Below, piece by piece: positions 10,001 to 28,224 of a stretch of 64,000 nucleotides of DNA. Every line of letters starts with the position of its first letter. Position 1 is the first letter of the stretch. Location: assembly GCA_903916595.1 (NCBI GenBank), contig CAIWXI010000055.1:7870-71869 (forward strand), given 5' to 3'. Below the pieces are notes generated by a model that was given only the letters and a program-made list of their open reading frames with translations, was not told the origin of the DNA and made no database searches. The stretch comes from an uncultured Bacteroidales bacterium (GTDB lineage: Bacteria > Bacteroidota > Bacteroidia > Bacteroidales > FEN-979). The position numbers were made by a program, and so were the translations under genes.

Positions 10001-10109
10001 CCGCTGAAAACCTAGTAACTCTCAGCTGCAGATCGGTATATTTTTTAAGCAGATCTTCGTATGTTCCCGAGAATTCCGGTTTCGTTATTTGAAAATCATC
10101 AGTTTCCAA
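7086..10109 (-). CDS. hybrid sensor histidine kinase (GAF/PAS-HisKA-HATPase-REC-HPt-like)
   Basis: H-box [14 protein letters not shown], boxes [14 protein letters not shown] and GTGLGLAI, receiver [11 protein letters not shown]...[12 protein letters not shown], and a C-terminal HPt-like [11 protein letters not shown]. Confidence 0.85.
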
Positions 10110-13666: not shown

Positions 13667-13683
13667 GACTTTATTATTGTTTT

Positions 13684-14487: not shown

Positions 14488-14645
14488 ACATTGATTTTAT
14501 TTTCCTTATTTCACTGCAAAATTACAGGATAAAAGGGTTGTAGTTTCAAAAATTTTGGTCGCTCCCTTTTACCACAGCAGCTTGCTCCATTTGCTGGTAT
14601 GCTATCAGAAGACACAGAGGCGCAAAAGAAGGCCATTATAACAGT

Positions 14646-14699
14646 TTTTTACGATTATTTACTCCTATTGTTATTTTCTTACTTGTATTTCTTGGAGAA
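14646..14699 (+). promoter_or_regulatory. phased-TTAC conserved element, copy 3 (upstream of lipoprotein / precursor A operon)
   Basis: TTTTTACGATTATTTACTCCTATTGTTATTTTCTTACTTGTATTTCTTGGAGAA. Ungapped hand alignment to copy 1 gives about 40/54 identities. TTAC occurs at offsets 4, 14 and 34. A -7-like TTACTTTG follows at 14715-14722. Confidence 0.55.
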
Positions 14700-14784
14700 C
14701 AGGATTTGTCATTATTACTTTGTTGATGATATTAATGGAGAAATCCAGTTAAACAATATACACTTGAACCTAAAACAAAGTGAC

Positions 14785-15435
14785 ATGAAAAAAAACATTG
14801 GATTATTTATTTGCGGACTCCTCCTTTCAGCAACAATGGGGGTCGCCCAGAAACTAACTTCCGGCAGTCTGGGGGCATTAAAAGGTGAAACGACTCTGAA
14901 TGTAATGTTTGATTATTCAAACGTGACCGTTGGCAATCCGGTAAACCCCTTCATGTCAAAGAAAGGTATTACTGAAAAGGAGTATGTAGAACAAAAAACC
15001 TCAGAACTCAATGCAAAAAAACCAGGTGACGGGGACCGCTGGGCCCAGGCCTGGCAGGATGACCGTCAAAAACTTTTTCAGCCGGCTTTCCTGCAGGAAC
15101 TCAACGATAAACTTGAAAAACAAGGATTAGTCGCGAAAGAAAATGCATCCGATGCCAGGTACACGCTGGTAGTGAAAACTATTCTTGTTAATGTGGGGTT
15201 TAACATCGGGATGTCAAAAAAGGAAGCATATATCAACCTGGTGATCGATATTGTAGAAACAGCAGATCATTCAAAGGTAGCTGCTTCGGTTGAAATGAAT
15301 AATGTACTTAAAAAGGTCCAGATGTCTTACGGTGATATGACTTTCGATTTTGCAGTCGGCCAACGCCTGCAGGCATGTTATGAGCAAGCCGGCATATCCT
15401 TTGGTAAATTTCTCTCAAAAGGATTATCCAAATAA
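14785..15435 (+). CDS. secreted protein or lipoprotein of unknown function
   Basis: The track ORF starts at 14599, but its first 186 nt cover the conserved noncoding element. ATG 14785 gives the signal/lipobox-like peptide MKKNIGLFICGLLLSATMGVAQ. Confidence 0.55.
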   Translation: MKKNIGLFICGLLLSATMGVAQKLTSGSLGALKGETTLNVMFDYSNVTVGNPVNPFMSKKGITEKEYVEQKTSELNAKKPGDGDRWAQAWQDDRQKLFQPAFLQELNDKLEKQGLVAKENASDARYTLVVKTILVNVGFNIGMSKKEAYINLVIDIVETADHSKVAASVEMNNVLKKVQMSYGDMTFDFAVGQRLQACYEQAGISFGKFLSKGLSK

Positions 15436-15596
15436 GAGTTTTGCAGGTTCATGGACAGGCCGGTTATACTGACCACCTTCTGCCGATTTTGTTTTACCAC
15501 CTTACCTTATTATCAATCAATAAAATGGCATGGTCAAATTATTCCGGCGAAGGCTGGTCAATGCGAGCGTTTTTTCCAGGCATGATTAATAAACAT

Positions 15597-15917
15597 ATGA
15601 AAACAAAACAAGTCATTGAAATGCAGCTCATCGAAAAAGCGATGAAAGATCCCGATTTCAGGAAGCGGCTTCTTGAAAACCCGAAAGCAGTCATTCAGGA
15701 AATGACGGGGTTTGAACTTTCTCCATCCCTCAACCTGAGAATTCTCGAAGAGGATCCTCACACAGTGTACCTGATCCTTCCATTTATTCCGTCTCAACTA
15801 AATGAAAATGAACTGGATGAAACTGAGCTGGAAAGGATAGCAGGAGGGGGGCAATTTACAGGGTTCTCTTTTTGTCATACCTGTGGTTGTGACTCTTTTA
15901 CCCGTGAATGTGAGTAG
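15597..15917 (+). CDS. NHLP-leader RiPP/bacteriocin precursor A (core GQFTGFSFCHTCGCDSFTRECE)
   Basis: MKTKQVIEMQLIEKAMKDPDFRKRLLENPKAVIQEMTGF...TVYLILP...ELDETELERIAGG shows the nitrile-hydratase-like leader pattern ending in a double-glycine site. The track start at 15441 (TTG) looks like a spurious extension. An alternative ATG lies at 15582. Confidence 0.85.
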   Translation: MKTKQVIEMQLIEKAMKDPDFRKRLLENPKAVIQEMTGFELSPSLNLRILEEDPHTVYLILPFIPSQLNENELDETELERIAGGGQFTGFSFCHTCGCDSFTRECE

Positions 15918-15965
15918 TACATTCCAAGCTTATATTTTTATCTGAAAACTTTAAACCCAGATCAT

Positions 15966-16535
15966 ATGAAAACCAAATTCTTATTTCTTTTTATCAGTCT
16001 CAGCTGTTTGATCAGCAATTTAAAGTCTCAGGACATCCTGGTTTATAAAAACGGAGACGAAGTCCAGTCTAAAGTTATAGAGGTAACCGATGACAATATA
16101 AAATATAAAAAGTGGGGTAATTTAGACGGACCATCGTATACGGCCATTAAAAAGGACGTTTTAATGATAAAATATCAGAATGGAACAAAAGATGTATTTA
16201 ATAATCAGCCCACTCAGACTAATTCAAATACAGCTGTAACACAGAAAAAGTCTGAACCAGGAAAAATATGCTTTTATTCTTCAGATAAACGGATTGATCA
16301 GATAGATATTTACGTTTATTATTATGACGAAGCCGGAGCAAAGAAATCAAGAGTCGGTCAGTTGGATTTCTATTTCAAAGGCCGTCCCGATTGCGGTCAG
16401 GATGGAACGTATACTTTAAATCTTCCGCCGGGCGATTATGACTATTATGCTGTTGACGACGTTATTTACGAAATGAAAGGTACATTTTCAGTCATAGAAA
16501 ACCAATGTACTTTTCTGGATGTCGTCTGCAGATAA
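15966..16535 (+). CDS. secreted protein of unknown function (4 Cys in C-terminal half)
   Basis: Signal peptide MKTKFLFLFISLSCLISNLKSQ. No family recognised. It lies between precursor A and the C10 peptidase gene. Confidence 0.6.
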   Translation: MKTKFLFLFISLSCLISNLKSQDILVYKNGDEVQSKVIEVTDDNIKYKKWGNLDGPSYTAIKKDVLMIKYQNGTKDVFNNQPTQTNSNTAVTQKKSEPGKICFYSSDKRIDQIDIYVYYYDEAGAKKSRVGQLDFYFKGRPDCGQDGTYTLNLPPGDYDYYAVDDVIYEMKGTFSVIENQCTFLDVVCR

Positions 16536-16574
16536 ATATTCCAGAATAATCCCGCTAAGACCGCCTGGTCGGAA

Positions 16575-16628
16575 TTTTTACAATTTCTTACTCCTTTTTT
16601 TAAATCCTTACCTGTATTGTTTTGAAAC
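16575..16628 (+). promoter_or_regulatory. phased-TTAC conserved element, copy 1 (upstream of C10 peptidase gene)
   Basis: TTTTTACAATTTCTTACTCCTTTTTTTAAATCCTTACCTGTATTGTTTTGAAAC. It is 49/54 identical to copy 2. TTTG (-33-like) lies at 16621-16624 and TAATTTTA (-7-like) at 16645-16652. Confidence 0.65.
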
Positions 16629-16725
16629 ATGATACGGCTGATATTAATTTTACCATACGAAGACTGTTTCTATGCAGAACTATAAACAGCCCATATTATT
16701 TTAAACAAACATTAACAAAAATTTT

Positions 16726-19329
16726 ATGAAAAAAATAATCCTGTCTCTCCTGTTTGCTGTGGTATTGATCAGCAGCGGGTTTGGAAAAACCGTTGAAGTA
16801 AACCGTGCAAAAAATGTTGCGTCAAATTACCTGGCTTCAATGCCAACCCGGTTTCCACAGGGAATTCCCGGAGGTCTGAGCCTGTGTTATACGGCTGCGG
16901 AAAACAACACCTCCGCAATGAAGGCATCCTCAGCGCCATTATATTATGTTTTTAATATAAACAGCGCCTATGGTTTTATCATTATTTCGGCGGATGATGT
17001 TGTCATTCCGGTGCTGGCTTATTCCGATGAAACCAGTTTCTCTGCTGATAACATTCCACCTAATGTTGCAGGCTGGCTGAAGGGGTATGAGAATGAGATC
17101 AGTCATGCCATCAGCACGAACCTGGATCAGGCTCCTGAAGTTCAGTCGGAATGGACCGCCCTGGTCAAAGGCCCTCTGCAGGGCCATGCGCTTAAGTCGG
17201 CAACCGGAGTTAATGCTCTTATCACAACCATCTGGGGTCAGGACCCGTTCTATAATGATCTATGTCCGTACGATAATACCGCTGCTGAGCGGACCGTAAC
17301 CGGATGTGTTGCCACAGCTATGGCCCAGGTCATGAAATATCATGCTTATCCCACCACCGGTATCGGAAGTTATTCTTACAGCACCACCCGTTATGGAACC
17401 CTGTCGGCTAATTTCGGGGCAACGACTTATAACTGGACCGCCATGCCCAACAACGTGACCACAGCAAACACTGCCGTGGCCACCCTGATGTATCATTGCG
17501 GGGTGGGTGCCAAAATGGACTACAACGTGAGTGCCCAGGGAGGAAGTGCAGCATACGTCGTTGCTACCGACGATCCGAAATGTGCTGAAAATGCACTGAA
17601 AGACTATTTCGGTTATGCCACAACTTTGCAGGGCAAAACGAAATCAAATTACACCAACACCGAGTGGATCAACCTGCTGAAAACCGAACTTAATGCCAGC
17701 AGGCCGATGGTCTATGCAGGGGGAGCGCATTGCTTTGTCTGTGACGGTTATGATGACAGTGATAAGTTCCACTTCAACTGGGGCTGGTCGGGAAGTTACG
17801 ACGGATTTTACGCCCTTACAGCTCTGATACCGGGTGGGACCGGGACCGGCGGGGGCAACGGGAATTACACCAACGGACAGGAAGCTGTTATCGGGATTCG
17901 TAAGCCGGCTTCGGGGGGAGGCGGAGACAGGTTTTTCAAGCTTGCATTAAATGCAGCGGTCACCTGCCCATCCGACATCATCAATTACGAAGATTCCCTC
18001 TCCTTTCACACCGATATCATTAACAATGGCCAGTCGACGTTCAGCGGCGATATTTCAGCCTGTATCTTTGATACCAACGGGATCTTTATTCATGAAGTCC
18101 AGACCATCAAGGGAGTTGCACTCACCGCCGGCAGCCATTTGCCAAACGGTGCAACTTTCACAAACCCCGGGCTCACCTCCATGCTTCCCAACACGTATTT
18201 CGTGGGTATTATGTACAGGTCGGCCGATACAAACTGGATCATTGTTCCCGATACCAATGCCTTCCACAACAATAAACGGCTGGTGGTCATAAACACCAAC
18301 CCCGTCGAAATGTATGCGGCCATGAACATAAGCCCCGGCTTAAATATGACACAGGGAGATGCAGTATCGGTGCAGGCCGACATCGTCAATCACGGAACCA
18401 CCGATTTTAACGGCACTCTGGACCTTTCGATTTACGACATGGAAGGGTATTATGTGAATTTTATAGGCGAGAAGACAAATTTCACACTCCCGGTGAACCA
18501 GCACACCATGGGTCTGACATTCAGTACATCCAGCATCAATGTCCAGCCCGGCAGCTATCTTATAGCTATGCTGTTTCAGCCCGCCGGATCGTCGGACTGG
18601 CAGTTGATAGGATCCACCGCTTATGCAAACCCGGTTAAAATCCAGGTCAATGCAGTTCCTTTGATCGCCGATCAGTATGAGCCCAATAACACTTCCGCAA
18701 CGGCTTCTTCCCTGCCGGTAAGTTTCGCAACAAACCCGGCCATTATTAATACTGTTGGTGCAAACTGCCATACAGGCATAGATTTTGACTTTTACACACT
18801 TTCTCTCCCTGCAGGCTATAATTATGTTATTACCGGCAATCTGGTTGATGCTTATAATGACCCTGACCAGGTATATACCCTGGATGCACTCTGGTCGTAT
18901 TCCACCAACGGCATAACCTGGTCTGAGGCTTATGATGACACCATTCCTGATATTACAATGAACAACGGCGGAACTATTATGTTCGACGTTGAACCATATT
19001 ACCCCGGTCAGACAGGAACGTACCAGTCAGTTGTACGGATAAGCAGGAACGCGCTTGGCGTAAATGATAAAACGCAGCCTGATCAAGTCATGGTTTACCC
19101 CAATCCTGTTACTGATTACCTCTTTATTGAATCAGCAGACCAACGGGCAGTCTTATCAGGAATTAAGCTGTTCAGCGTGACTGGATGCGAGCTTACCACA
19201 GTGAACTTTACCGGGCTTAAGTCCGGCTGCAGCATGTCCGTTACTAACCTTCAGGATGGAACATATATCCTTGCAGTGACAACTGTCAGCGGCATTATTC
19301 ACAGGCAGATCGTCATCCGGAAAAAATAA
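16726..19329 (+). CDS. C10-family (streptopain/SpeB-like) cysteine peptidase with PPC domain and T9SS C-terminal sorting domain
   Basis: Catalytic Cys motif TGCVATAMAQVMKYH, His motif GGAHCFVCDGYD, and FHFNWGWSG. There is an N-terminal Spi-inhibitor-like propeptide. EPNNTSATASSL...DFDFYTL indicates a PPC domain, and the C-terminal VYPNPVTDYLFIE...GTYIL indicates a T9SS CTD. Confidence 0.85.
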   Translation: MKKIILSLLFAVVLISSGFGKTVEVNRAKNVASNYLASMPTRFPQGIPGGLSLCYTAAENNTSAMKASSAPLYYVFNINSAYGFIIISADDVVIPVLAYSDETSFSADNIPPNVAGWLKGYENEISHAISTNLDQAPEVQSEWTALVKGPLQGHALKSATGVNALITTIWGQDPFYNDLCPYDNTAAERTVTGCVATAMAQVMKYHAYPTTGIGSYSYSTTRYGTLSANFGATTYNWTAMPNNVTTANTAVATLMYHCGVGAKMDYNVSAQGGSAAYVVATDDPKCAENALKDYFGYATTLQGKTKSNYTNTEWINLLKTELNASRPMVYAGGAHCFVCDGYDDSDKFHFNWGWSGSYDGFYALTALIPGGTGTGGGNGNYTNGQEAVIGIRKPASGGGGDRFFKLALNAAVTCPSDIINYEDSLSFHTDIINNGQSTFSGDISACIFDTNGIFIHEVQTIKGVALTAGSHLPNGATFTNPGLTSMLPNTYFVGIMYRSADTNWIIVPDTNAFHNNKRLVVINTNPVEMYAAMNISPGLNMTQGDAVSVQADIVNHGTTDFNGTLDLSIYDMEGYYVNFIGEKTNFTLPVNQHTMGLTFSTSSINVQPGSYLIAMLFQPAGSSDWQLIGSTAYANPVKIQVNAVPLIADQYEPNNTSATASSLPVSFATNPAIINTVGANCHTGIDFDFYTLSLPAGYNYVITGNLVDAYNDPDQVYTLDALWSYSTNGITWSEAYDDTIPDITMNNGGTIMFDVEPYYPGQTGTYQSVVRISRNALGVNDKTQPDQVMVYPNPVTDYLFIESADQRAVLSGIKLFSVTGCELTTVNFTGLKSGCSMSVTNLQDGTYILAVTTVSGIIHRQIVIRKK

Positions 19330-19397
19330 AGCTTACTTTTGATTCTGCAAGGGTCTGCTGCCTGACCGGAAAAAAATTGATTACGCATTGAACACCA

Positions 19398-20462
19398 ATG
19401 ACTGGAGCTCTTCAAGTTTTGATTGCTGAAGCCATCAGCAGCGCAATAGGTTTTCTGTTATGTTCAAGGGATGGGCAAGGGCTGTGGTCCGATTTCCGCC
19501 TTCCCATCGGGGAGAGCAGCGGGTGGGTCACCGGGTTTGTAGGTTCAGTCCTCGCCGGCTCTGGTGATGACCGTGTCATAAGGGAAACGAAGAATGTCTG
19601 GAATGTGTTTGCCGCTCAAAAACTGTTCACCGGTCACGGGGGATGGGGATATAACTTGCTCACCCCCGAGGATGCCGACAGCACGGTATGGGGTATCAGG
19701 TTTGCTCTAAGCCTCGGCCTGGATGGGAAGTTCAGGACAAAGGCAGCGGAGGAGTTTCTTCTGAAGCATTGGTTAACAGATGGCGGGATCACCACATACA
19801 TCCTTGAAAAAGAGCTTAGAAAACTGATTGGCGCCACGCCTGAAGAGGACATCCGGGGATGGACGGGTTCACACCTCTGTGTGACCGCCGCGGCTGCAGG
19901 GATTCCTGGGTTCAGCAGCATCCTTTTACCCTACATCCTGGAACATCAGCTTCCCGCCGGGAACTGGAATGGTTACTGGTGGAGCGATTCCGCTTATGCC
20001 ACAGCTCTTGCGACGGAGGCCCTGCTTGTCGCAGGAATGACTGAACACCGCGATGCAATTGACCGGGCGTTCTCCTGGGCGATGCAGCATTTCGGCAGGG
20101 AAGCTTTCGTTTCAAATGATATCTTTCGTGAGGGATCTCCCTTTGCCACAGCCCTGGCTTTAAAGACCCTGCTTCTTGCCGGGGAGGTTGACAAGACCCG
20201 TGAAAAATCCGGGGCGGTTGCCCGATGGCTCATCAGCCGGCAGCAGGACAACGGATCGTGGCAACCCTCTGCCTTGCTGCAGGTTCCTCCGCCTTTTATG
20301 AAAATACCGGTCGATCCCGGGAGCTGGCCTGATGGAAAAGGAGCTGCCTGGGGCACCGTGGTTACCGATCACAGGTCGTTGTTTACCACGGCAGCCGTAC
20401 TCGATTCGCTGGTGTTCTATCAGAAGACCCATTCAGGAACGATAAAGCCGGAAGCACTATGA
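19398..20462 (+). CDS. QW-repeat alpha/alpha-toroid protein (squalene-cyclase / prenyltransferase-repeat-like), single domain
   Basis: Repeats of the type a..(F/W/Y)L...Q..dG.W are present: GFLLCSRDGQGLW, YILEHQLPAGNW, RWLISRQQDNGSW and GHGGWGY. PEDADSTVWGIRFAL resembles the DxDD(T/S)A segment of class II cyclases. No signal peptide. Confidence 0.6.
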   Translation: MTGALQVLIAEAISSAIGFLLCSRDGQGLWSDFRLPIGESSGWVTGFVGSVLAGSGDDRVIRETKNVWNVFAAQKLFTGHGGWGYNLLTPEDADSTVWGIRFALSLGLDGKFRTKAAEEFLLKHWLTDGGITTYILEKELRKLIGATPEEDIRGWTGSHLCVTAAAAGIPGFSSILLPYILEHQLPAGNWNGYWWSDSAYATALATEALLVAGMTEHRDAIDRAFSWAMQHFGREAFVSNDIFREGSPFATALALKTLLLAGEVDKTREKSGAVARWLISRQQDNGSWQPSALLQVPPPFMKIPVDPGSWPDGKGAAWGTVVTDHRSLFTTAAVLDSLVFYQKTHSGTIKPEAL

Positions 20463-21526
20463 AACATTCGACCCCAGCCGAAAAGTATGCTAAACTTTAT
20501 ATCACGCAGGATCAGGTGCTTGGCGCTATGTCCGGCCGTTTCGGGCCCTTTTATCTTTCGGGTGGCGCTGCCCTCTCAAGGTATTACCTGAACCATCGCT
20601 TCACCTACGATCTGGATTTTTCAGCTAACATTTTACCCTGCTTTGAGAGAAAGGCTGCTCCTGTAGTTGACGTGCTGAAAACACAATGCCATGTTACTGA
20701 TGACGAACCAGCAGTTTACGCGCGATATTTCCACCTGTGGATACAGGGCAGCGAAAAGCTCAAGATCAGTATTTCAAACGACATTTCCGAACAATTGGGG
20801 TTGCCGTTTATGGCAGGGCAGGTTCCTGTGGATAATATGAAGAACATGCTGGTTAAAAAACTCAAAACCATTCTGGATCGTGATAACCCTAAAGATCTGT
20901 TCGATATCGTAAGTATTGCATCGGCCTACAGTTTTCATTGGGGTGATGTGTTGAAGTATGCGCAAAAGAAAGCCGTCATGGCCCAGGTGAATCTCTTATT
21001 GCAATTCAGCCGGGTTGCCTTCCGGTTTAACAGTATATGGCGCGGACGGGAACCAAAAGATCTGTTCAGCCTTTTGGGGGCTCCTCCGCCTATAGGTTTC
21101 AACAGGGTCTATCTGACTGCAAATATCGGGCGGAACGGCAGTAATTATGAAAAACCTTCTTCCACCATGGAATCCCTTTCGCGAGAGCTGCGACGTACTG
21201 CCTACAGGCTTAAAGCGATTTCAGAGTCGGATGGCCTCGCGAATGAGGCGCAGATCGCTGACATTCCTTCCTGTTTCAATCTGACACTGGGAGGGGCCTC
21301 CATAAGGATTGACCTGCCAGCGGTTTCTGTAAGGGACAAGGCCCTTAAACAATTCAGCCGGGTTCCGGCAGGACTTTACCAGGGTCTGGAATGGATGCAC
21401 TCTCCTGTTGCGGCAGAAGAACTGAAAGCGAAGTTCAAAATGATCAGGAATGATCTTTTCCTGGCCGGAGAAAATTCACTTGGCATTGGAAAAACTCCCA
21501 TTGATAAGGCCAGGCCGGGGCTATAA
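20459..21526 (+). CDS. AbiEii/DUF1814-like nucleotidyltransferase-fold protein
   Basis: N-terminal FYLSGGAALSRYYLNHRFTYDLDF fits the GG(T/A)AL...R.(S/T).D(I/L)DF pattern of AbiEii-family NTases. The start overlaps the upstream stop (ATGA at 20459-20462). Confidence 0.5.
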   Translation: MKHSTPAEKYAKLYITQDQVLGAMSGRFGPFYLSGGAALSRYYLNHRFTYDLDFSANILPCFERKAAPVVDVLKTQCHVTDDEPAVYARYFHLWIQGSEKLKISISNDISEQLGLPFMAGQVPVDNMKNMLVKKLKTILDRDNPKDLFDIVSIASAYSFHWGDVLKYAQKKAVMAQVNLLLQFSRVAFRFNSIWRGREPKDLFSLLGAPPPIGFNRVYLTANIGRNGSNYEKPSSTMESLSRELRRTAYRLKAISESDGLANEAQIADIPSCFNLTLGGASIRIDLPAVSVRDKALKQFSRVPAGLYQGLEWMHSPVAAEELKAKFKMIRNDLFLAGENSLGIGKTPIDKARPGL

Positions 21527-21568
21527 GTTCAATCAGGGCAAGGACTGGTCGATGATTCCGGACTTTCC

Positions 21569-22600
21569 CTAGCGTATCATGGTTCCGAAATAGCCCTTGC
21601 ATTCAATAGGTGCATTTTCTTTGTACACAATTTTCAGGTGGTTTAGACCCCTGATATAGTTTGCCGGATAGGGAAACCTGCACTTTGTTTTTCCGCAGAA
21701 GCTCAGCAGGGCCTCCCGTTTTCCAGAGGTCACCAAATTGTCCGATTCCAGCACATCCAGCGCAGCCTCCCACCCCGGATTAAACCGGGGCTGGCTGAGA
21801 TTGTTAAAAAGCATCTCCAGGGCCAGATATGGAAGGATCTCCTTCCCTGTATTGATATTGCAGGCGAAGTAATCGAAAAGGCCGGCATATCGATCGGTCA
21901 GGAACCTGACTTTCTGAAAATCACCCGGCCAGCCGATATCCCGGAGGTAAGCTTCCAGGCGCACAGCGTTTATTTTTGTCAGCACCAGCCTCACTGCCTC
22001 CATATACCTGGGGATCATCAGACCGGTCTGGTATAAATTTGCATGTTCGGGAAGTGCATGGACGGCTGTTCTCAGACTTCCGGCCATCTCATCCGGGAAC
22101 GGAGTACCGGTAATGATCCGGTAGATTTCATCAAGGACACGGAGGGTTCCTTCAGATTGGGCTTTTCGGCCTGCTTTTTCGTCAACAATGATCCCGAAAA
22201 AAATATTCGGGCAGCGATTATACGATATTCCGTCAAAGTCAAACTCAAGCCAGACGGACCCTACCGAGACATCTAAAAGATGTCCCTGGGTATTCCATGC
22301 AATAAAAAACTTCCTTATTCTTTGCCAGAGGGGATCAGCGAGCAAATTTTCATGCAGATCCGACATTGGACTGGTACCGGCCAGTATCTTTGCCCCTTCA
22401 GTGTCTTTCCCGATCAGAAACGAAAAATCGCAGGCGGCCGCGGGCTCACCCAGCCGGCTTTCAAAGCCAAAATCGCGCGACAGGTCAAAAGGAAAAAGTG
22501 AACATAGCTCTTTCAATGAGTCCATGCAGCCACCCCCCATCAAGGTGGAATGAAGGGGGGTGGAAATGATTTCGATATGATCGGCGAAGGAAAGTTTCAT
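21569..22600 (-). CDS. 343-aa cytoplasmic orphan protein, last gene of the precursor B operon
   Basis: Long ORF with no signal peptide or TM segment. No family recognised. Strand-like segments (WLEFDFDG, HLKIVYK, ECKGYFG) vaguely recall ABBA prenyltransferase K-x-Y strands, but this is unverified. Confidence 0.6.
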   Translation of the reverse strand: MKLSFADHIEIISTPLHSTLMGGGCMDSLKELCSLFPFDLSRDFGFESRLGEPAAACDFSFLIGKDTEGAKILAGTSPMSDLHENLLADPLWQRIRKFFIAWNTQGHLLDVSVGSVWLEFDFDGISYNRCPNIFFGIIVDEKAGRKAQSEGTLRVLDEIYRIITGTPFPDEMAGSLRTAVHALPEHANLYQTGLMIPRYMEAVRLVLTKINAVRLEAYLRDIGWPGDFQKVRFLTDRYAGLFDYFACNINTGKEILPYLALEMLFNNLSQPRFNPGWEAALDVLESDNLVTSGKREALLSFCGKTKCRFPYPANYIRGLNHLKIVYKENAPIECKGYFGTMIR

Positions 22601-22642
22601 AAAAATTTTTTGCCCGAAAAGCGCTCACCGTGCTGGCCGGGG

Positions 22643-22930
22643 CTATGATCCCTGGCCGGGCCCCCCCCAACCTGTCCCCCCGGCAACTGAAGCCAGCTCT
22701 GCTTCGGTGAGTTCGTCTTCAGCAGCATCTCCCCGAAAGGGAGGAAGAACAAGGTAAACGGTTTTCTGATCCTCCTGCAGAATCTTTATTTTTATTGTTT
22801 CCGGAAGATTTATTCCAGTCTCCAGTTCGAAAATTAATTTTGGATTATCAATCAGCTTCTTACGGAATGAATCATCTTTCATCGCTTTTTCGATGATTTG
22901 CTCTTCAAGCTTTTTTCTGAGATTTGACAT
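22643..22930 (-). CDS. NHLP-leader precursor B (core TGWGGPGQGS as assembled)
   Basis: MSNLRKKLEEQIIEKAMKDDSFRKKLIDNPKLIFELETG...TVYLVLPP...ELTEAELASVAGG has the same leader family as precursors A and C. The core-coding part contains a G8 homopolymer, so the C-terminus is uncertain. Confidence 0.8.
   Translation of the reverse strand: MSNLRKKLEEQIIEKAMKDDSFRKKLIDNPKLIFELETGINLPETIKIKILQEDQKTVYLVLPPFRGDAAEDELTEAELASVAGGTGWGGPGQGS
22661..22668 (-). repeat. G8 homopolymer (C8 on plus strand) inside the core-coding region of precursor B
   Basis: Coding strand reads ACA GGT TGG GGG GGG CCC GGC CAG GGA TCA TAG. Confidence 0.95.
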
Positions 22931-22959
22931 GGCTCTCTATGAATTTATTTTATTATTTA

Positions 22960-24918
22960 TTATCGTTTGACGACAAGTTTCTTTGTCTCCATCCAGTCGG
23001 CTGTTTTAATTACGATATTATAGATTCCCTGGGAAGCCTGGGAAAGGTCAATACTATATTCTTTTTTTCCGCTGAATTTTTTCTCAAGGATGGCCCTGCC
23101 TGACTGATCTTCAACAAGGACATTCAGCGTTAAACAGCTTTCATTTGATGGTACGATCCGGAAAATACCCATTGTGGGATTCGGGTAGATCGAAACCTGG
23201 TTGCCCGAGCTTCCTGCCGGGTTGGAAACCCCGAGGGGGTCAATTATTTTAAAGGAAGCGATCCTTGTCTTGGGAGTACCAGCTCCTGTTGCATACTGAT
23301 TCGTGTACCAGAAAGTCTGGTCATCGGAAGGATCCACAGAGAGGGATGTATAATCACCCCAGCGTTCTGGCGATGAACCGCCGGACTGTGAGGTAGTACC
23401 CACCCATATTGTATCTTCAGCAATGTCGAGGATAGAGTTACCGGCCAGGTAAGCGGTAGCGGACTGACCACAGTAGCGAATCCCGGGGTATTCGCCATCG
23501 CTGGATATCGAATATCCCAGCCCTATGGTGTTGGATCCGTTCAACATGATGCTGCCCATCCACCGGCTGTTTGTATCAGGGGCATAAGTGCCTTCCTGTC
23601 TTATGCTCCAGTCGCTGCCGGTTTTTCGCAATTCATACCATCTGATCCCGGCCTGGCCCTTCTGATCTATATTTACAGTGTGGCAGCAAACGATGGTCTG
23701 GTACGATCCGAAGTTACGGTACTGGGGCACATTCATGATAATAGTGGGCACGGCATCAACTTTCTGGGTGGTTCCTTTCTGCCTGATATCTTCCCAGTTA
23801 CTGCCGAAGTTACTGTTAAAGGGTGTCACATCCAGTTGTTGAACACGGTTGAATGTCGATGCCGCCGTGTCGGTCCAGTTCACAGCCAGTTCATATATCC
23901 AAATCTGGTCTTTGGTTCCGCTGGAAGCATCATCGTTAATGGCAATATAAATGCCGGGAGATCCTGCCGGAGCAAAGGGTCCGTCATTATCTACAGGAGG
24001 AACAACCCTGAATCCTCCGCTTCCGCCCGGACGATAGGGATTTTTAATTCCGAAAAACTTGGGAATACTATCTCCCACCAGCATCTTCGACCTCTCATAA
24101 ACATAGGTATCCCTTCCCCCACTATTATTATTATCCCCCATATAATACCCATCCTGCCATACGCCGAATTTAGGGTAATCGGGCATTATGTCGGCCTTGA
24201 AAGAATACGGGTACCAGGTTCCCGTAGGGTCGTTTGTTGAGGATACGGCCATAAGAATATAATTCGGGGTCCCGTCTTTGGGCACCGAGAATTCTGTGGC
24301 CAGCCAGCGATCGGCCTGTTCGTCATACAGGATGACCGGATCACCGTCGTTCCGGTTTGCTCCCGGCTTATTGCCAAACAGCAGGTTCATATCAGTAGGC
24401 CCGGCTACAAGTGTGCCTGTTTTATCATATATAGCATACGTGTCATTCATCGTCTGCATGTAATGGTTTTTACCAACGGTCCCGTTATCGTCGGAAGGCC
24501 GGGATCCTGACTCCTGTCCTTCAAAATTTTTCAGCGGACTGCGGAAAAGCTTCTGAGTTCCCATATTTTTCTGCCAGGCCCCGTCCTCACCTTTTGGGAG
24601 GGCTGTTTCAGCAAAAGGATAGGTACGCTCCGACTTTTCTTCATTAATTGTCCGTTTGCTGTTTTTAAGTTTCAGCGCATTGAATTCATCAGCAGTTAAT
24701 GCAGGAAGATCGCGTAAAGGACGGGTTTCACCCAGGAAAGTCCCGGTCCCCACTATGGTAGGGTGAACCGGTATTGTTGGTGTGAATGAGTTTTGATCTG
24801 GCTTTTTAGCCGAAGAAGATGATTGGTTCTGGGCATAGACGCCCCTTGCCAGGAGCAGTATTATCAGCAACATGAAAAGGGAATAATAGTTCCCCGAAGA
24901 AGCAGAATGTGTTTTCAT
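22960..24918 (-). CDS. T9SS-secreted protein of unknown function (possible beta-propeller)
   Basis: Signal peptide (LLIILLLARGVYAQ). C-terminal VSIYPNPTMGIFRIV...GIYNIVIKT...KKLVVKR indicates a T9SS sorting domain. There are Asp-box-like segments such as SSTNDPTGTW. The stop lies 29 nt before precursor B. Confidence 0.75.
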   Translation of the reverse strand: MKTHSASSGNYYSLFMLLIILLLARGVYAQNQSSSSAKKPDQNSFTPTIPVHPTIVGTGTFLGETRPLRDLPALTADEFNALKLKNSKRTINEEKSERTYPFAETALPKGEDGAWQKNMGTQKLFRSPLKNFEGQESGSRPSDDNGTVGKNHYMQTMNDTYAIYDKTGTLVAGPTDMNLLFGNKPGANRNDGDPVILYDEQADRWLATEFSVPKDGTPNYILMAVSSTNDPTGTWYPYSFKADIMPDYPKFGVWQDGYYMGDNNNSGGRDTYVYERSKMLVGDSIPKFFGIKNPYRPGGSGGFRVVPPVDNDGPFAPAGSPGIYIAINDDASSGTKDQIWIYELAVNWTDTAASTFNRVQQLDVTPFNSNFGSNWEDIRQKGTTQKVDAVPTIIMNVPQYRNFGSYQTIVCCHTVNIDQKGQAGIRWYELRKTGSDWSIRQEGTYAPDTNSRWMGSIMLNGSNTIGLGYSISSDGEYPGIRYCGQSATAYLAGNSILDIAEDTIWVGTTSQSGGSSPERWGDYTSLSVDPSDDQTFWYTNQYATGAGTPKTRIASFKIIDPLGVSNPAGSSGNQVSIYPNPTMGIFRIVPSNESCLTLNVLVEDQSGRAILEKKFSGKKEYSIDLSQASQGIYNIVIKTADWMETKKLVVKR

Positions 24919-24977
24919 AGCGTTGATTTTTAATAATTATTACTGAAGGATTAAATGGTTTTTTTGTTTCACTCCAA

Positions 24978-24985
24978 CAAATATA
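24978..24985 (-). promoter_or_regulatory. -7-type promoter box TATATTTG for the T9SS-cargo / precursor B operon
   Basis: Exact match to the Bacteroides TAnnTTTG consensus on the minus strand. It lies 60 nt upstream of ATG 24918 and 19 nt downstream of the TTTG in element copy 2. Confidence 0.5.
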
Positions 24986-25000
24986 ATTGCAGGACAGTTT

Positions 25001-25054
25001 GTTTCAAAATAAAACAAGTAAGGATTTGTAAAAAGGAGTAAGAAATTGTAAAAA
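25001..25054 (-). promoter_or_regulatory. phased-TTAC conserved element, copy 2 (upstream of T9SS-cargo / precursor B operon)
   Basis: Minus strand reads TTTTTACAATTTCTTACTCCTTTTTACAAATCCTTACTTGTTTTATTTTGAAAC. TTAC occurs at offsets 4, 14, 24 and 34, an exact 10-bp phasing. Confidence 0.65.
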
Positions 25055-25074
25055 CCTGCAATGTGGGTTGCAGG
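25050..25074 (-). terminator. putative intrinsic terminator after the TPR-AraC gene
   Basis: Minus strand reads CCTGCA-ACCCACAT-TGCAGG followed by TTTTT, starting 7 nt after the stop codon. The 6-bp stem is short. The T-run overlaps the first TTAC of element copy 2. Confidence 0.4.
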
Positions 25075-25080
25075 AAGCAT

Positions 25081-26967
25081 CTAAGAAAGATTATCTTCAT
25101 TTTCACGACTGCTGGCAATGGAATTCCTAAAATAAGAAGGCGTTATACCGATCTGTTTTTTGAAGATAGAATGAAACGTAACTTTTGTACTGAAACCTAC
25201 CATTTCCCCTATGCCTTCTATGGAGAGATGGTCATATTTTGATTCTGTAAGAAGCCTCCTCGCCTCCTTGATCCTCAGCTCGTTTATAAAGCTGTTGAAG
25301 TTCTGTTTGTAATTATCATGGATCATGTGCGAAAGGTAAGTGCGGTTTGTGTTTAATTTCCTGCAGATATCATCTACAGTGAGGCCTGGTTCAAGGAAAG
25401 GTTTTTCGTCCTGCATTAACCGGCTGAACTTTACCAACAGACCCAGGGTAGTGTTTTCAATTTCATTATCCGGAGGGATAACCATGATTTGATCATCAGA
25501 GATGCTTATGCTTCTCCGGGCTTCAATCTGTTTCTCGGTTTTTACGATTTCCAGGTTCTTCCTGACGATTTGCCTGAATGCCCTGCTCTTTTGCCGGTAT
25601 AACATCGAAATCACAAAACCCAGCACTAAAAGTACAAAAGCAACTCCGGCTAAGAATTTTATCTGTAATTTCTGAAGATTGTTGGCTTTTTGCAATAAAA
25701 GATTTTCCTGCTCTTTCTTTTCTGTTTCAAAACGGGTTTGCATTTCAAGAATTGCCTTGGTTTTATCTTCGCTAAAGATGCTGTCACCTGCAATCCGGTA
25801 TCTCGAAAAAAAATCTTTGGCAGCAGATTTATCGCCGGTGATTATACTTATTTCGGTCAAATAGCGGCTGCATTTCTGTATCATTTCAAGTGAATTTTCC
25901 TCACTGGCATAGTCGAATGCTTCCCGGAACATTTTGGTCGCAGCTGCCAGATTGCCTTTATTATATAAGATTTCACCCAGGCTCACGTTCAAGCTGGCAA
26001 TCTCAGCGCCCGATCCGATACTATTGGCCAGGGCCAGGGCTTGCTCATAATATTCAATTGCTTTTGGTTCGTTCTTCAGCAAATCAGCATATACATCTCC
26101 CAGACAGTGAAGGGAAATTACGATCCCGTATTTATTGCCGATTTCTTTTTTCAGCTCAAGAGATTTCCGATGATAAAATAAGGCTGAATCCGGTTGTTTG
26201 AGGTCTACGTAGAGATCTCCAAGAGCAGTATAATTAGTGGCCAGGTATTTCTTGTTCTTCCTTTTCAGGTTAATTGAGATGGCTTTCTTCAAAAACAAGC
26301 TGGTCATTTTATTATTGTCCCAGTCAAAATATACCAAACCGAGATTGTTATAGGTTGCCGCCAGGCCGTCTGAATCGGCAAGCTCCTCTTTCAGCCTGGC
26401 TGATTCGAGAAAGTATTTTGTGGCTTTTTCATAGAATGATGTTTGTTTATAGGTGGAAGCCATGTTGTTGTATAGCTTCGCCATTTGCGGCTTGTCATTT
26501 ACAGGCAGAAGTATTTCCCTTGCCTTTTCATAATAATTCAACGCGTCGGAAAATCTGCCCATGTAATAGTAAGTAGTTCCGATATCAGTATAAATTTTTC
26601 CGATGTCAAGTGGTTCTTTTAGTTCCCGGGCTATGCTTAGCGCATGATCATAGCAGGCCAGAGAACTGTCATATTCGCCCAGCATCTGATAAATGTTGGC
26701 AAGATTCCGCTGCATGGACATGCCGGCTAATGTTTTTCCGAAATCATGCTTTTTGCTGAATTGCAGCAGCTTTTCTTTTGCTATAAGGTAATTTCCTGAT
26801 AACCTGAAAAGCTCAAAAGACTTCTGTAAAAAAAACAGGGCGCTGTCTGATTTACCTGAATTGATAAAGCCTTCAGAAAGTAAAAGACAGGAGTCGGCCG
26901 ATTTCTCCTGGGTAAAAACGAAATAGCCGGATAGAAAAAAAATCAGCAATAAAATCAATCGCTTCAT
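25081..26967 (-). CDS. transmembrane one-component regulator: extracytoplasmic TPR domain - TM - cytoplasmic AraC-type HTH
   Basis: N-terminal signal/anchor MKRLILLLIFFLSGYFVF, then about 400 aa of TPR-like repeats, a TM segment FLAGVAFVLLVLGFVISMLY, and a C-terminal AraC HTH (TVDDICRKLNTNRTYLSHMI...IGEMVGFSTKVTFHSIFKKQIGITPSYFR). Confidence 0.8.
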   Translation of the reverse strand: MKRLILLLIFFLSGYFVFTQEKSADSCLLLSEGFINSGKSDSALFFLQKSFELFRLSGNYLIAKEKLLQFSKKHDFGKTLAGMSMQRNLANIYQMLGEYDSSLACYDHALSIARELKEPLDIGKIYTDIGTTYYYMGRFSDALNYYEKAREILLPVNDKPQMAKLYNNMASTYKQTSFYEKATKYFLESARLKEELADSDGLAATYNNLGLVYFDWDNNKMTSLFLKKAISINLKRKNKKYLATNYTALGDLYVDLKQPDSALFYHRKSLELKKEIGNKYGIVISLHCLGDVYADLLKNEPKAIEYYEQALALANSIGSGAEIASLNVSLGEILYNKGNLAAATKMFREAFDYASEENSLEMIQKCSRYLTEISIITGDKSAAKDFFSRYRIAGDSIFSEDKTKAILEMQTRFETEKKEQENLLLQKANNLQKLQIKFLAGVAFVLLVLGFVISMLYRQKSRAFRQIVRKNLEIVKTEKQIEARRSISISDDQIMVIPPDNEIENTTLGLLVKFSRLMQDEKPFLEPGLTVDDICRKLNTNRTYLSHMIHDNYKQNFNSFINELRIKEARRLLTESKYDHLSIEGIGEMVGFSTKVTFHSIFKKQIGITPSYFRNSIASSRENEDNLS

Positions 26968-26985
26968 GCAATGGCGGGGCCGGTC

Positions 26986-27279
26986 CTAGTAAAAACACAT
27001 AGGAGAGCAGCTATAATCATTTACATAGCCTCCGGCAACTGCCTCCAGTTCTGCATCGGTCAATTCCGAGTCAACTTCAGTTGAAGCCAGACGAGGCAGC
27101 ACCAGGTATATGGTGCCCGGGTCTTCTTCGAGAATTTTCAAGGTTACTGATTCAGAAACTGCTACACCCATTTCATTAATAATTACTGCTGCCGGGTTGT
27201 CAATAAGTCTTTTTCTGAAATCCATATCTTTCAGGGACATTTCGATGAGCTTTGGTTCGATTTCTTTTCTCAGGTTCAT
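26986..27279 (-). CDS. NHLP-leader precursor C (core YVNDYSCSPMCFY)
   Basis: MNLRKEIEPKLIEMSLKDMDFRKRLIDNPAAVIINEMG...TIYLVLP...ELTDAELEAVAGG. The gene ends 18 nt before the TPR-AraC gene on the same strand. Confidence 0.85.
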   Translation of the reverse strand: MNLRKEIEPKLIEMSLKDMDFRKRLIDNPAAVIINEMGVAVSESVTLKILEEDPGTIYLVLPRLASTEVDSELTDAELEAVAGGYVNDYSCSPMCFY

Positions 27280-27361
27280 GTGGTTGAGATTAACGGGAGT
27301 AAATATAAATACATTTATTAAGATTCTGCAAAGGCAGTCTATGATAATTAATAAAAAAAAC

Positions 27362-27369
27362 TATATTTG
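27362..27369 (+). promoter_or_regulatory. -7-type promoter box TATATTTG for the exporter operon
   Basis: Exact TAnnTTTG match 25 nt upstream of ATG 27395, in the 115-nt divergent intergenic region. Confidence 0.45.
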
Positions 27370-27394
27370 TTCCTAATAATTATTCCTTTCTGAT

Positions 27395-28201: not shown

Positions 28202-28224
28202 TCAGGCTAATCATACTCTTCTGC

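What the first reader, a model, noticed from the sequence alone, without database searches (positions are those of the whole stretch)
14646..25054. Three copies of a 54-nt element with 10-bp-phased TTAC repeats, each placed identically upstream of a promoter-like box
The copies are 16575-16628 (plus), 25001-25054 (minus) and 14646-14699 (plus). By ungapped hand alignment, copies 1 and 2 are 49/54 identical and copy 3 matches copy 1 at about 40/54. TTAC recurs at offsets 4, 14 and 34 in all copies, and also at 24 in copy 2, which is one helical turn apart on one face of the DNA. In copies 1 and 2 the 3' end carries a -33-like TTTG; copy 3 has TTGG at the same offset. In all three copies a TAnnTTTG-like box follows the element 15-16 nt later (TAATTTTA 16645-16652, TATATTTG 24978-24985 on the minus strand, TTACTTTG 14715-14722). 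The three downstream units are the lipoprotein + precursor A + small secreted protein, the C10 peptidase + QW protein + NTase, and the T9SS cargo + precursor B + orphan. Near-identical noncoding sequence at fixed promoter geometry argues for a common activator site or a specialised promoter, defining a small regulon. Copy 2 starts inside the T-run of the putative terminator of the adjacent TPR-AraC regulator gene. A shorter partial match (CCTTACCT, 15500-15507) lies upstream of precursor A, and I rate it weak.
Basis: seen in the sequence. Interest (0 to 1): 0.8.

Follow-up and report, generated by a model that had tools for sequence, protein, structure and literature searches.

The report
Operator-promoter of a membrane TPR–AraC regulator
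The three 54-nt copies are real and are most likely the DNA landing pad plus promoter through which the neighbouring membrane-anchored TPR–AraC regulator switches on a peptide natural-product and secreted-protein gene cluster; the same arrangement recurs in related, mostly uncultured, Bacteroidota.

Summary
The three copies are 49/54, 40/54 and 38/54 identical, and the next best match in the window is 32 or lower.

Each copy has three parts:
- Two tandem 20-bp units (TTTTTACaaTTnCTTACTcC). Each unit holds two subsites 10 bp apart.
- A weak -33 TTTG/TTGG at positions 47-50.
- After an unconserved 15-nt gap, a -7 TAnnTTTG box.

Comparative evidence:
- A weight matrix built from the window copies alone found the element beside homologues of the TPR-AraC gene 25081-26967. 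Those loci had been chosen only by protein similarity. Fifteen of 17 loci carrying a regulator homologue (28-94% identity) have a copy starting 4-170 nt after the regulator's stop codon.
- About 60 TPR-only control loci showed nothing comparable.
- Across 185,579 species genomes, a degenerate pattern gave 6 true hits, all in four Bacteroidota MAGs, and 11 chance hits.
- Orthologues of the window's target genes keep the element even where operons are rearranged.
- The second subsite changes together with the second HTH recognition helix. The TTTAC/TTGAC subsite and the first helix are both conserved.

Best reading: this is an AraC-type activator site abutting a sigma-ABfr promoter, and it defines a local regulon. 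DNA binding, transcription start sites and the inducing signal are untested.

The parts
16575..16628 (+). Copy 1. Unit 1 is 16575-16594 and unit 2 is 16595-16614. The -33 TTTG is at 16621-16624. It drives the operon 16726-21526.
16645..16652 (+). -7-like box TAATTTTA (5/6 of TAnnTTTG), 16 nt after copy 1. The start codon follows at 16726.
25001..25054 (-). Copy 2. Unit 1 is 25054-25035 and unit 2 is 25034-25015; the two units are 16/20 identical. The -33 TTTG is at 25008-25005. It drives the operon 24918-21569.
24978..24985 (-). -7 box TATATTTG (6/6), 15 nt after copy 2. The start codon follows at 24918.
14646..14699 (+). Copy 3, the most diverged. Unit 1 is 14646-14665 and unit 2 is 14666-14685. 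TTGG is at 14692-14695. It drives the operon 14785-16535.
14715..14722 (+). -7-like box TTACTTTG (5/6), 15 nt after copy 3. The start codon follows at 14785.
25081..26967 (-). Candidate activator, 628 aa. It has a signal peptide (residues 1-19, followed by Q), a TPR domain, a TM helix (about 438-460, followed by a positively charged stretch) and a C-terminal AraC-type double HTH (HTH_18).
25055..25074 (-). Terminator-like hairpin of the regulator gene. Its T-tail is the start of copy 2.
26986..27279 (-). NHLP precursor C, just upstream of the regulator on the same strand. The 27280-27394 promoter region has ordinary -33/-7-like boxes and no element.
14785..16535 (+). Target unit of copy 3. It holds a 216-aa protein (14785-15435), NHLP precursor A (15597-15917) and a 189-aa protein (15966-16535).
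16726..21526 (+). Target unit of copy 1. It holds a C10 peptidase with a T9SS C-terminal domain (16726-19329), a squalene-hopene-cyclase-like protein (19398-20462) and an AbiEii-like nucleotidyltransferase (20459-21526).
21569..24918 (-). Target unit of copy 2. It holds a 652-aa T9SS-CTD protein (22960-24918), NHLP precursor B (22643-22930) and a 343-aa protein (21569-22600).

Best explanation
Each 54-nt copy is a composite of an activator operator and a promoter. Positions 1-40 are two tandem 20-bp direct repeats. Each repeat carries a TTTAC subsite and a CTTAC subsite one helical turn apart. Positions 47-50 are a weak -33 (TTTG/TTGG). A sigma-ABfr-type -7 box (TAnnTTTG) follows after a 19-bp spacer. 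If transcription starts a few bases after the -7 box, the repeats lie at roughly -82 to -43. The protein that binds them is most likely the product of 25081-26967. This is a one-component membrane regulator whose TPR domain faces the periplasm and whose cytoplasmic AraC-type domain has two HTH motifs. The inferred mode of binding is one monomer per 20-bp unit. The invariant first HTH would sit on the conserved TTTAC, the variable second HTH would sit on CTTAC, and the DNA-bound dimer would recruit RNA polymerase to the weak -33. Three operons are switched on together; they encode NHLP peptide precursors A and B, candidate modification enzymes and T9SS-secreted proteins. Shown here: the repeat anatomy, the fixed promoter geometry, the linkage to the regulator across genomes, conservation of the regulon, and co-variation between subsite and HTH. 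Inferred: binding itself, activation rather than repression, the transcription start sites, the stoichiometry and the signal sensed by the TPR domain.
For: 1. Anatomy. Across 23 non-identical instances, unit 1 matches unit 2 at 12.7/20 on average at lag 20, against 9.0 or less at lags 15-26. Information content peaks at TTTAC, CTTAC(T)CC and CTTACyTG, and is about zero in the 15-nt gap.
2. Promoter geometry. A 5/6-or-better match to TAnnTTTG starts at offset 15 in 20 of 23 instances, at 16 in 2, at 17 in 1, and at no other offset from 0 to 28. This fits the published -33 TTTG / -7 TAnnTTTG consensus (PMC7366714).
3. Out-of-sample linkage. A matrix built from the window's 3 copies alone found 76- and 40-bit sites in L004, a 39-bit site in L005 and a 17.5-bit site in L006, against a background of 8.6 or less. 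These loci had been fetched only because they encode regulator homologues. The updated matrix found sites in L007-L010 (26-49 bits, background 7 or less).
4. Controls. Of 80 metagenome loci fetched with the regulator alignment, the 8 highest scores (15.8-70 bits) are 8 of the 15 loci whose match includes the HTH domain. In each a site (the top-scoring one in 6 of 8; the second copy in L028 and L034) starts within about 170 nt after the regulator's stop codon. TPR-only loci (about 650 kb) reach 14.8 bits at most.
5. Remote relatives at 25-30% identity (L032, L033, L101) carry their own tandem 20-bp repeats followed by TTTG and TAnnTTTG at the same place.
6. Rarity. The degenerate pattern gave 17 matches in 185,579 species genomes. 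Six are true matches, in 4 Bacteroidota/Bacteroidales MAGs, and the regulator is found next to them in L011, L015 and L022.
7. Regulon conservation. Orthologues of the 216-aa protein, precursor A, the 189-aa protein, the C10 peptidase and precursor B are directly preceded by the element in other genomes, even where operon structure differs.
8. Specificity. The HTH1 helix TNR(T/S)YLS is invariant, as is the TTTAC/TTGAC subsite. The HTH2 helix changes with the second subsite: KVTFH goes with CTTAC, NSR..F(Y/F) with ATAAC, SRS.FF with TGAAC/CGGAC, and KSNSNF with GCAGTCC.
9. The DNA-binding domain is a bona fide AraC-type double HTH (HTH_18, E = 8e-16; PDB matches to AraC-type response regulators, a hybrid two-component protein, Rns, XylR and AraC).
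Against: There is no experimental datum: no transcription start site, footprint or expression data. Linkage of the element to the regulator's 3' flank could partly reflect conserved synteny among close relatives; this argument rests on the more distant loci and on the distal copies. Two loci with regulator homologues (L005, L006) have the element only upstream-divergent or 6 kb away, and four HTH-bearing loci (L050, L051, L059, L096) showed no obvious repeat after the stop codon. The exporter operon (27395-33344) and the precursor C/regulator operon lack the element, so the regulon does not cover the whole cluster. Whole genomes could not be scanned with the matrix, so weaker distal copies cannot be excluded. 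The assignment of HTH1 and HTH2 to particular subsites is inferred by analogy.
Confidence: 0.8

Rival explanations
1. The element is the site of a different trans-acting factor, such as another transcription factor or an alternative sigma factor. On this view the TPR-AraC gene is merely a conserved neighbour.
For: No binding data exist. Other regulators lie nearby in some loci, for example a TPR-GerE protein in L004 and histidine kinases and response regulators at 5888-10109 in the window.
Against: The only gene consistently present beside the element across loci with otherwise unrelated content is the TPR-AraC homologue. The second subsite co-varies with that protein's HTH2 helix. The -33/-7 boxes are of the housekeeping sigma-ABfr type, not an ECF type. 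The layout of two subsites 10 bp apart in a 20-bp direct repeat is what a double-HTH AraC monomer pair would need (established knowledge of MarA/AraC/XylS).
Confidence: 0.08
2. The copies are simply recently duplicated promoter DNA, carried along with paralogous genes or rearrangements, and hold no dedicated regulator site.
For: The cluster does show duplication. There are three paralogous NHLP precursors (I1), and a relic of an SHC-like gene's 3' end lies directly upstream of copy 3 (D9, 60).
Against: Similarity starts and stops sharply: there is none upstream, none in the 15-nt spacer and none downstream. The first genes downstream are not homologous to each other. The same 54-nt architecture is retained where regulators are only 28-59% identical, a distance at which neutral intergenic DNA would be unrecognisable.
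Confidence: 0.04
3. The element is an intrinsically curved, T-tract-phased upstream element (UP-like) that boosts promoter strength without any specific protein.
For: T-runs recur at positions 1-5 and 21-25, in phase with the helix, and the region is T-rich.
Against: The most conserved positions include C and G residues (C7, C17, C19-20, C37, G40). In distant loci the second subsite changes to GC-rich words (CGGAC, GCAGTCC) while spacing is kept and the regulator's HTH2 changes with it. The element is restricted to regulator-containing clusters.
Confidence: 0.04
4. The element is a dispersed or mobile repeat (REP/MITE-like), or a structured RNA element.
For: It has multiple copies on both strands within 10 kb.
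Against: There are only 6 true matches, in 4 MAGs, among 185,579 species genomes. It has no terminal inverted repeats and always points into a gene with a -7 box at a fixed offset. Rfam gives no hit at E = 1 or better in 13500-28500. RNA folding z-scores are -0.86, -1.76 and +0.16. The element lies upstream of the predicted transcription start.
Confidence: 0.02

Closest known systems
AraC/XylS-family activator sites at activator-dependent promoters (AraC I1-I2, XylS at Pm, RhaS/RhaR, MelR). This comparison rests on my own knowledge of these systems.
   Same: Tandem direct repeats lie about two helical turns apart. Each repeat has two subsites in adjacent major grooves for the two HTH motifs of one monomer. 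The proximal repeat abuts a weak -35-equivalent. The regulator gene lies next to its targets.
   Different: The promoter is of the Bacteroidota sigma-ABfr type (-33/-7). The period is 20 bp, not 21. The regulator is membrane-anchored with a periplasmic TPR domain instead of a cytoplasmic ligand-binding/dimerisation domain. The targets are RiPP precursors and T9SS cargo, not catabolic genes.
Predicted operators of Bacteroides hybrid two-component systems (PMC3878776).
   Same: The DNA-binding domain is AraC-type and sits on a membrane-spanning sensor of Bacteroidota. The motifs are direct repeats with about 21 bp between sites, read as dimers on one face of the DNA. Motif similarity tracks the phylogeny of the DNA-binding domain. 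A solved 'hybrid two-component system protein' is among the best PDB matches.
   Different: The regulator here has no HisKA, HATPase or receiver domain, so there is no phosphorelay. Its sensor is TPR rather than a beta-propeller/Y_Y_Y or periplasmic-binding fold. The regulon is not a polysaccharide utilisation locus.
SusR-like regulators of Bacteroides (PMC3878776).
   Same: Topology is shared: periplasmic sensor, membrane span, cytoplasmic DNA-binding domain, no phosphorelay. There are faint TPR_SusR and SusR-family hits to the TPR part.
   Different: The SusR DNA-binding domain has no similarity to known TF families, and its predicted repeats are 67 or 77 bp apart. Here the domain is AraC-type and the repeats are 20 bp apart. 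The NCBIfam SusR score is 22 bits against a cut-off of 480.
RRNPP-type TPR-HTH peptide-sensing regulators of Firmicutes (PlcR, Rgg, PrgX). This comparison rests on my own knowledge.
   Same: A TPR sensor is fused to an HTH output and is genetically coupled to small secreted-peptide genes.
   Different: RRNPP proteins are cytoplasmic, have an N-terminal XRE-type HTH and bind re-imported peptides. Here the TPR domain is predicted to be periplasmic and the HTH is a C-terminal AraC type. No peptide sensing has been shown.
Sigma-ABfr promoter consensus of Bacteroidota (PMC7366714, introduction).
   Same: A TTTG around -33 and a TAnnTTTG at -7 are present, with a 19-bp spacer in the instances here.
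   Different: The -33 is often degenerate (TTGG, TTGC, TAGG), as expected for an activator-dependent promoter. Transcription start sites are not mapped.

Membership tests
AraC/XylS-type activator operator | The cognate regulator carries an AraC-type double-HTH DNA-binding domain. | tested here: met
   HTH_18 at E = 8.1e-16 and HTH_AraC at E = 3.5e-7 in residues 534-615. PDB matches to AraC-type domains.
AraC/XylS-type activator operator | Two direct repeats lie about two helical turns apart. | tested here: met
   Unit 1 versus unit 2 identity peaks at lag 20 (12.7/20, against 9.0 or less at other lags) in 23 instances. Several copies are 18/20 identical between units (L015, L024).
AraC/XylS-type activator operator | Each repeat holds two subsites about 10 bp apart, one for each HTH. 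| tested here: met
   TTTAC at positions 3-7 and CTTAC at 13-17 of each unit are the information peaks. They vary independently in distant loci.
AraC/XylS-type activator operator | The site has a fixed position immediately upstream of, or abutting, the -35-equivalent of the target promoter. | tested here: met
   The proximal unit ends 6 bp before the -33. The -7 box is at offset 15 in 20 of 23 instances and at 16 in 2 of 23.
AraC/XylS-type activator operator | The regulator physically binds the site and transcription depends on it. | not testable with these tools
   This needs EMSA or footprinting and reporter or deletion experiments.
Sigma-ABfr promoter | A TAnnTTTG at -7 and a TTTG near -33. 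| tested here: met
   consensus taken from PMC7366714.
Sigma-ABfr promoter | A mapped transcription start a few nt downstream of the -7 box. | not testable with these tools
   No RNA data are available.
Bacteroides hybrid two-component system (HTCS) | Histidine kinase and receiver domains are fused to the AraC output. | tested here: not met
   No HisKA, HATPase_c or Response_reg hit in the 628-aa protein. The FimS hit covers the TPR part only.
SusR family | A SusR-type C-terminal DNA-binding domain and family-level sequence similarity. | tested here: not met
   NCBIfam SusR_regulator scores 22 bits against a cut-off of 480, over the TPR region only. The DNA-binding domain is AraC-type, whereas SusR's is unlike known families.
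Dispersed repeat / MITE | Many copies at unrelated genomic sites, with terminal inverted repeats. | tested here: not met
   There are 6 true matches, in 4 MAGs, among 185,579 species genomes, all in regulator-type clusters. No copies occur elsewhere in the 64-kb window.
Structured RNA element | A match to a known family, or a thermodynamically unusual conserved fold. | tested here: not met
   No Rfam hit at E = 1 or better. Folding z-scores are -0.86, -1.76 and +0.16.
RRNPP peptide-sensing regulators | A cytoplasmic protein with an N-terminal XRE-type HTH followed by TPR. | tested here: not met
   The domain order is signal peptide, TPR, TM, then C-terminal AraC HTH.

The most novel reading that the evidence does not exclude
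The periplasmic TPR domain senses the exported, matured NHLP-derived peptide(s) of its own cluster. The 54-nt element would then be the output node of a peptide autoinduction (quorum-sensing-like) circuit in Bacteroidota, a Gram-negative and extracytoplasmic counterpart of TPR-HTH pheromone receptors. The HTH2/second-subsite pairs would form a readable specificity code that insulates parallel circuits from one another. Circumstantial support: NHLP precursor genes sit directly beside the regulator in 9 of 11 loci of the TTAC subfamily. A C39-ABC exporter is present in the cluster. TPR domains are typical peptide binders (my own knowledge). Nothing here tests sensing.
Probability: 0.25. Interest if true: 0.75.

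Novelty: new variant of a known kind. Interest (0 to 1): 0.5.

Why it matters
The result gives a concrete, testable regulatory handle on peptide natural-product clusters of largely uncultured Bacteroidota:
- a defined operator;
- a defined candidate regulator;
- a predicted local regulon of three operons, covering two precursors, candidate tailoring enzymes and T9SS-secreted proteins.

Such clusters are usually silent or inaccessible. Knowing the activator and its site would allow engineered activation or refactoring.

The work also outlines an uncharacterised class of one-component membrane regulators. These combine a SusR-like topology with an HTCS-like AraC output. Their operators follow one grammar: two 20-bp units, a 6-bp gap, a -33, a 19-bp spacer and a -7 box. 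One subsite and one recognition helix stay constant while the other pair co-varies. That is a natural data set for an AraC-family recognition code and for orthogonal promoter parts in Bacteroidota.

Tried and rejected
- **Mis-spaced pattern.** The single-unit pattern TTTACN6YTTAC missed all true copies and returned only chance hits. It was corrected to N5.
- **Partial match at 15500-15507.** The spacing is wrong, there is no second unit and there is no matrix signal, so it was rejected as a copy.
- **Element in front of other operons.** I looked upstream of the exporter operon and the precursor C/regulator operon (27280-27394). None is present; there are only ordinary -7/-33-like boxes.
- **NHLP fusion idea.** I considered that the roughly 120 extra N-terminal residues of most regulator homologues might be a fused NHLP domain. 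They are additional TPR sequence.
- **RNA readings.** Rfam gave nothing and folding was not significant.
- **Sigma-70 promoter scan.** It is not informative for this phylum; only its terminator output was used.
- **Literature searches.** Searches for a described TPR-TM-AraC regulator or operator in Bacteroidota RiPP clusters found nothing specific. One mining paper merely lists TPR and HTH genes in Bacteroidales RiPP clusters (PMC10352776).
- **HTH-bearing loci without a repeat.** Four such metagenome loci (L050, L051, L059, L096) showed no recognisable repeat after the stop codon. They may use other arrangements or be more distant paralogues.
- **Whole-genome scan of the source organism.** This was not possible. 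The source species is not among the genome contigs matches; the three matches on one ELA698 contig (L015, L024) have different spacing, and that regulator is only 77% identical.

Full report
**1. The observation**

Copy 1 is 16575-16628 (+), copy 2 is 25001-25054 (-) and copy 3 is 14646-14699 (+). Ungapped identities are 49/54, 40/54 and 38/54.

No other position on either strand of the window matches any copy at more than 31/54. The single exception, 32/54, is copy 2 against itself shifted by 20 nt. The repeat finder returns copies 1 and 2 as a 55-nt inverted pair at 91%. The first 25 nt occur exactly twice, against 0.01 expected.

The details also hold:
- the TTAC positions are as stated;
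- TTTG/TTGG sits at positions 47-50;
- the -7-like boxes lie 15-16 nt downstream;
- copy 2 starts in the T-tail of a terminator-like hairpin just behind the regulator gene.

The 'weak' partial match at 15500-15507 is not a copy.

**2. Anatomy**

Copy 2 reads TTTTTACAATTTCTTACTCC / TTTTTACAAATCCTTACTTG / TTTTATTTTGAAAC. That is two tandem 20-bp units followed by a 14-nt tail that contains the -33 TTTG.

I collected 23 non-identical instances from the window and related loci:
- Unit 1 resembles unit 2 at lag 20 (mean 12.7/20) and at no other lag (9.0 or less).
- The information peaks are TTTAC (unit positions 3-7) and CTTAC (13-17), one helical turn apart.
- The 15 nt after the element carry no information.
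- A box matching TAnnTTTG at 5/6 or better starts at offset 15 in 20 instances, at 16 in two, at 17 in one, and at no other offset from 0 to 28.
- The distance from the -33 TTTG to the -7 box is 19 bp.

This is the published sigma-ABfr promoter layout (PMC7366714). If transcription starts a few bases after the box, the two units lie at about -82 to -43.

**3. Context in the window**

Pfam and NCBIfam results describe an NHLP-type RiPP cluster.
- Copy 3 precedes a 216-aa protein, NHLP precursor A (15597-15917) and a 189-aa protein.
- Copy 1 precedes a C10 peptidase with a T9SS C-terminal domain, a squalene-hopene-cyclase-like protein and an AbiEii-like nucleotidyltransferase.
- Copy 2 precedes a 652-aa T9SS-CTD protein, NHLP precursor B and a 343-aa protein.

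The gene ending 26 nt before copy 2 (25081-26967) encodes a 628-aa protein with these features:
- an N-terminal signal peptide followed by Gln. This fits the Bacteroidetes 'Q-rule' as stated in the abstract of PMC5837995, which was listed;
- TPR repeats;
- one TM helix at about 438-460, followed by a positively charged stretch;
- a C-terminal AraC-type double HTH.

The TPR domain should therefore be periplasmic and the HTH domain cytoplasmic.

A third NHLP precursor (C, 26986-27279) lies just upstream on the same strand. Its promoter region, and that of the divergent HlyD/C39-ABC exporter operon, has ordinary -7/-33-like boxes and no element.

**4. Linkage to the regulator in other genomes**

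Homologues of the regulator were found by protein search, and their loci were fetched without reference to any DNA motif.

A weight matrix made only from the three window copies found the element next to the regulator in three loci. Background was 8.6 bits or less.

| Locus | Regulator identity | Site score(s) |
|---|---|---|
| L004 | 76% | 76 and 40 bits |
| L005 | 59% | 39 bits |
| L006 | 48% | 17.5 bits |

An updated matrix then found it in L007, L008, L009 and L010 (26-49 bits, background 7 or less).

A metagenome search with the regulator alignment returned 80 loci. Most are unrelated TPR proteins and so serve as controls.
- The eight highest matrix scores (15.8-70 bits) all belong to loci whose match includes the HTH domain; eight of the 15 such loci score this high.
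- In each of those eight, a site (the top-scoring one in six; the second copy in L028 and L034) begins within about 170 nt after the regulator's stop codon.
- The TPR-only loci, about 650 kb in total, reach 14.8 bits at most.

Overall, 15 of 17 regulator loci at 28-94% identity have a copy starting 4-170 nt after the stop codon.

Still more distant relatives (25-30% identity: L032, L033, L101) carry their own tandem 20-bp repeats at the same place, for example TTTACGCAGCCGGACAkG twice. These too are followed by TTTG and TAnnTTTG.

**5. Not a dispersed repeat**

The degenerate pattern ACNWTTNNTTACYYCNNTTN9TTACYTG matches all three window copies. It gave 17 matches in the 185,579-species genome collection.
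- Six matches have high matrix scores (above 50 bits). They lie in four Bacteroidota/Bacteroidales MAGs: L011, L013, L015, L024 (two matches) and L022.
- The other eleven are low-scoring matches in unrelated taxa, about the number expected by chance.
- Regulator homologues are found within the fetched stretch in L011, L015 and L022. L024 lies on the same contig as L015.

One caveat applies: an exact pattern undercounts diverged copies.

**6. Regulon conservation**

The first ORFs downstream of the element in other genomes are orthologues of the window's targets.

| Window target | Orthologue preceded by the element |
|---|---|
| 216-aa protein | L013, L029 (72-74% identity) |
| Precursor A | L013 (83%) |
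| 189-aa protein | L024 (87%) |
| C10 peptidase | L013, L024 (66-78%) |
| Precursor B | L004, L015, L028, L029 (62-77%) |

In several of these genomes the gene has its own copy of the element, whereas in the window it is an internal gene of an operon. The element therefore follows transcription units, not gene order.

**7. Co-variation**

I aligned the C-terminal domains against their sites.
- The first recognition helix, TNR(T/S)YLS, is invariant, and so is the TTTAC (or TTGAC) subsite.
- The second recognition helix differs between groups, and the second subsite differs with it:

| HTH2 helix | Second subsite |
|---|---|
| ...KVTFH... | CTTAC |
| ...NSR(V/T)(V/T)F(Y/F)... | ATAAC / ATACC |
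| ...SRS(T/N)FF... | TGAAC / CGGAC |
| ...KSNSNF... | GCAGTCC |

This is the pattern expected if this protein reads these sites. No rival explanation accounts for it.

**8. Mechanism**

Best explanation (confidence about 0.8): the element is an AraC-type activator operator fused to a weak sigma-ABfr promoter.

Inferred steps:
- one monomer binds each 20-bp unit, with HTH1 on TTTAC and HTH2 on CTTAC;
- the DNA-bound dimer at -82 to -43 compensates for a degenerate -33;
- activity is controlled by a signal sensed by the periplasmic TPR domain.

The regulator gene itself appears to be expressed from an element-free promoter, together with precursor C.

Rival readings are disfavoured by the evidence in sections 2-7 and. 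The rivals considered were another factor, mere duplication, intrinsic curvature, and a mobile or RNA element.

**9. Comparison with known systems**

- **Classical AraC/XylS activator sites.** In function and grammar the element works like these (my own knowledge).
- **Predicted operators of Bacteroides hybrid two-component systems.** These are direct repeats about 21 bp apart (PMC3878776), and the element resembles them too.
- **HTCS membership.** The regulator is not an HTCS, because it has no kinase or receiver domain.
- **SusR membership.** It is not a SusR-family member. The DNA-binding domain is different, SusR sites are 67 or 77 bp apart, and the family score is far below the cut-off.
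- **SusR topology.** It does share SusR's membrane topology.

Searches of the held literature found no description of this regulator class or its operator.

I therefore rate it a new variant of a known kind. It is an ordinary kind of cis-element belonging to an uncharacterised membrane TPR-AraC regulator class, tied to RiPP and T9SS-cargo operons.

**10. Limits**

There are no expression, transcription-start or binding data. No whole-genome matrix scan of the source organism was possible. The signal is unknown. Four distant HTH-bearing loci showed no recognisable site.

Noticed in passing
window 14556-14643: A degenerate relic of the 3' end of a squalene-hopene-cyclase-like gene lies directly upstream of copy 3 (compare 20373-20466; one frame reads ...LLHLLVCYQKTQ... 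against ...VLDSLVFYQKTH...). This suggests a past duplication or rearrangement within the cluster.
   Followed up: partly
window 14785-24918 and 26986-33344: The RiPP cluster has an unusual make-up. It has three NHLP precursors with GG cleavage motifs (cores QFTGFSFCHTCGCDSFTRECE, TGWGGPGQGS, YVNDYSCSPMCFY). It also has a C10 peptidase with a T9SS sorting domain, an SHC-like protein, an AbiEii-like nucleotidyltransferase, and HlyD plus a C39-ABC exporter. No LanB, LanM or radical-SAM enzyme is present. The chemistry is not predictable from known classes.
   Followed up: partly
window 25081-26967 compared with P0003-P0020: The window's regulator (628 aa) lacks about 120 N-terminal TPR residues that are present in most homologues (about 750 aa). 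A similar shortening is seen in P0012.
   Followed up: partly
L010 12351-12671, L030, L031, L034 and L040 (first ORF after the element): In the distant regulator subfamily (sites TTGACGAATCATAACATG x2), the element sits 28-32 nt before a 87-106 aa acylphosphatase-like ORF instead of an NHLP precursor.
   Followed up: no
L013 5687-5822 and L029 2994-3109: Two copies of the element are placed back to back on opposite strands, forming a divergent promoter pair between the 216-aa-protein gene and a precursor gene.
   Followed up: partly
L005 9888-9917: A third unit-like sequence (ATTTACGATTTCTTGCCCTT) lies 30 bp upstream of unit 1. It could be an auxiliary site.
   Followed up: no
window 53073-53177: A 21-nt tandem repeat (GGCCGGGGATGGAGCCTGAGG, 4-5 copies) lies inside the minus-strand ORF 52824-53948.
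   Followed up: no
window 51831-51845 (-): A lone exact match to the single-unit pattern (TTTACAAAAGTTTAC) lies inside a coding region. It has no second unit and no promoter boxes, so it is probably chance.
   Followed up: partly
L096 2854-3110: A long run of GGAAG(A/G)(G/T/A)T-type short repeats follows the stop codon of a distant TPR-AraC homologue.
   Followed up: no
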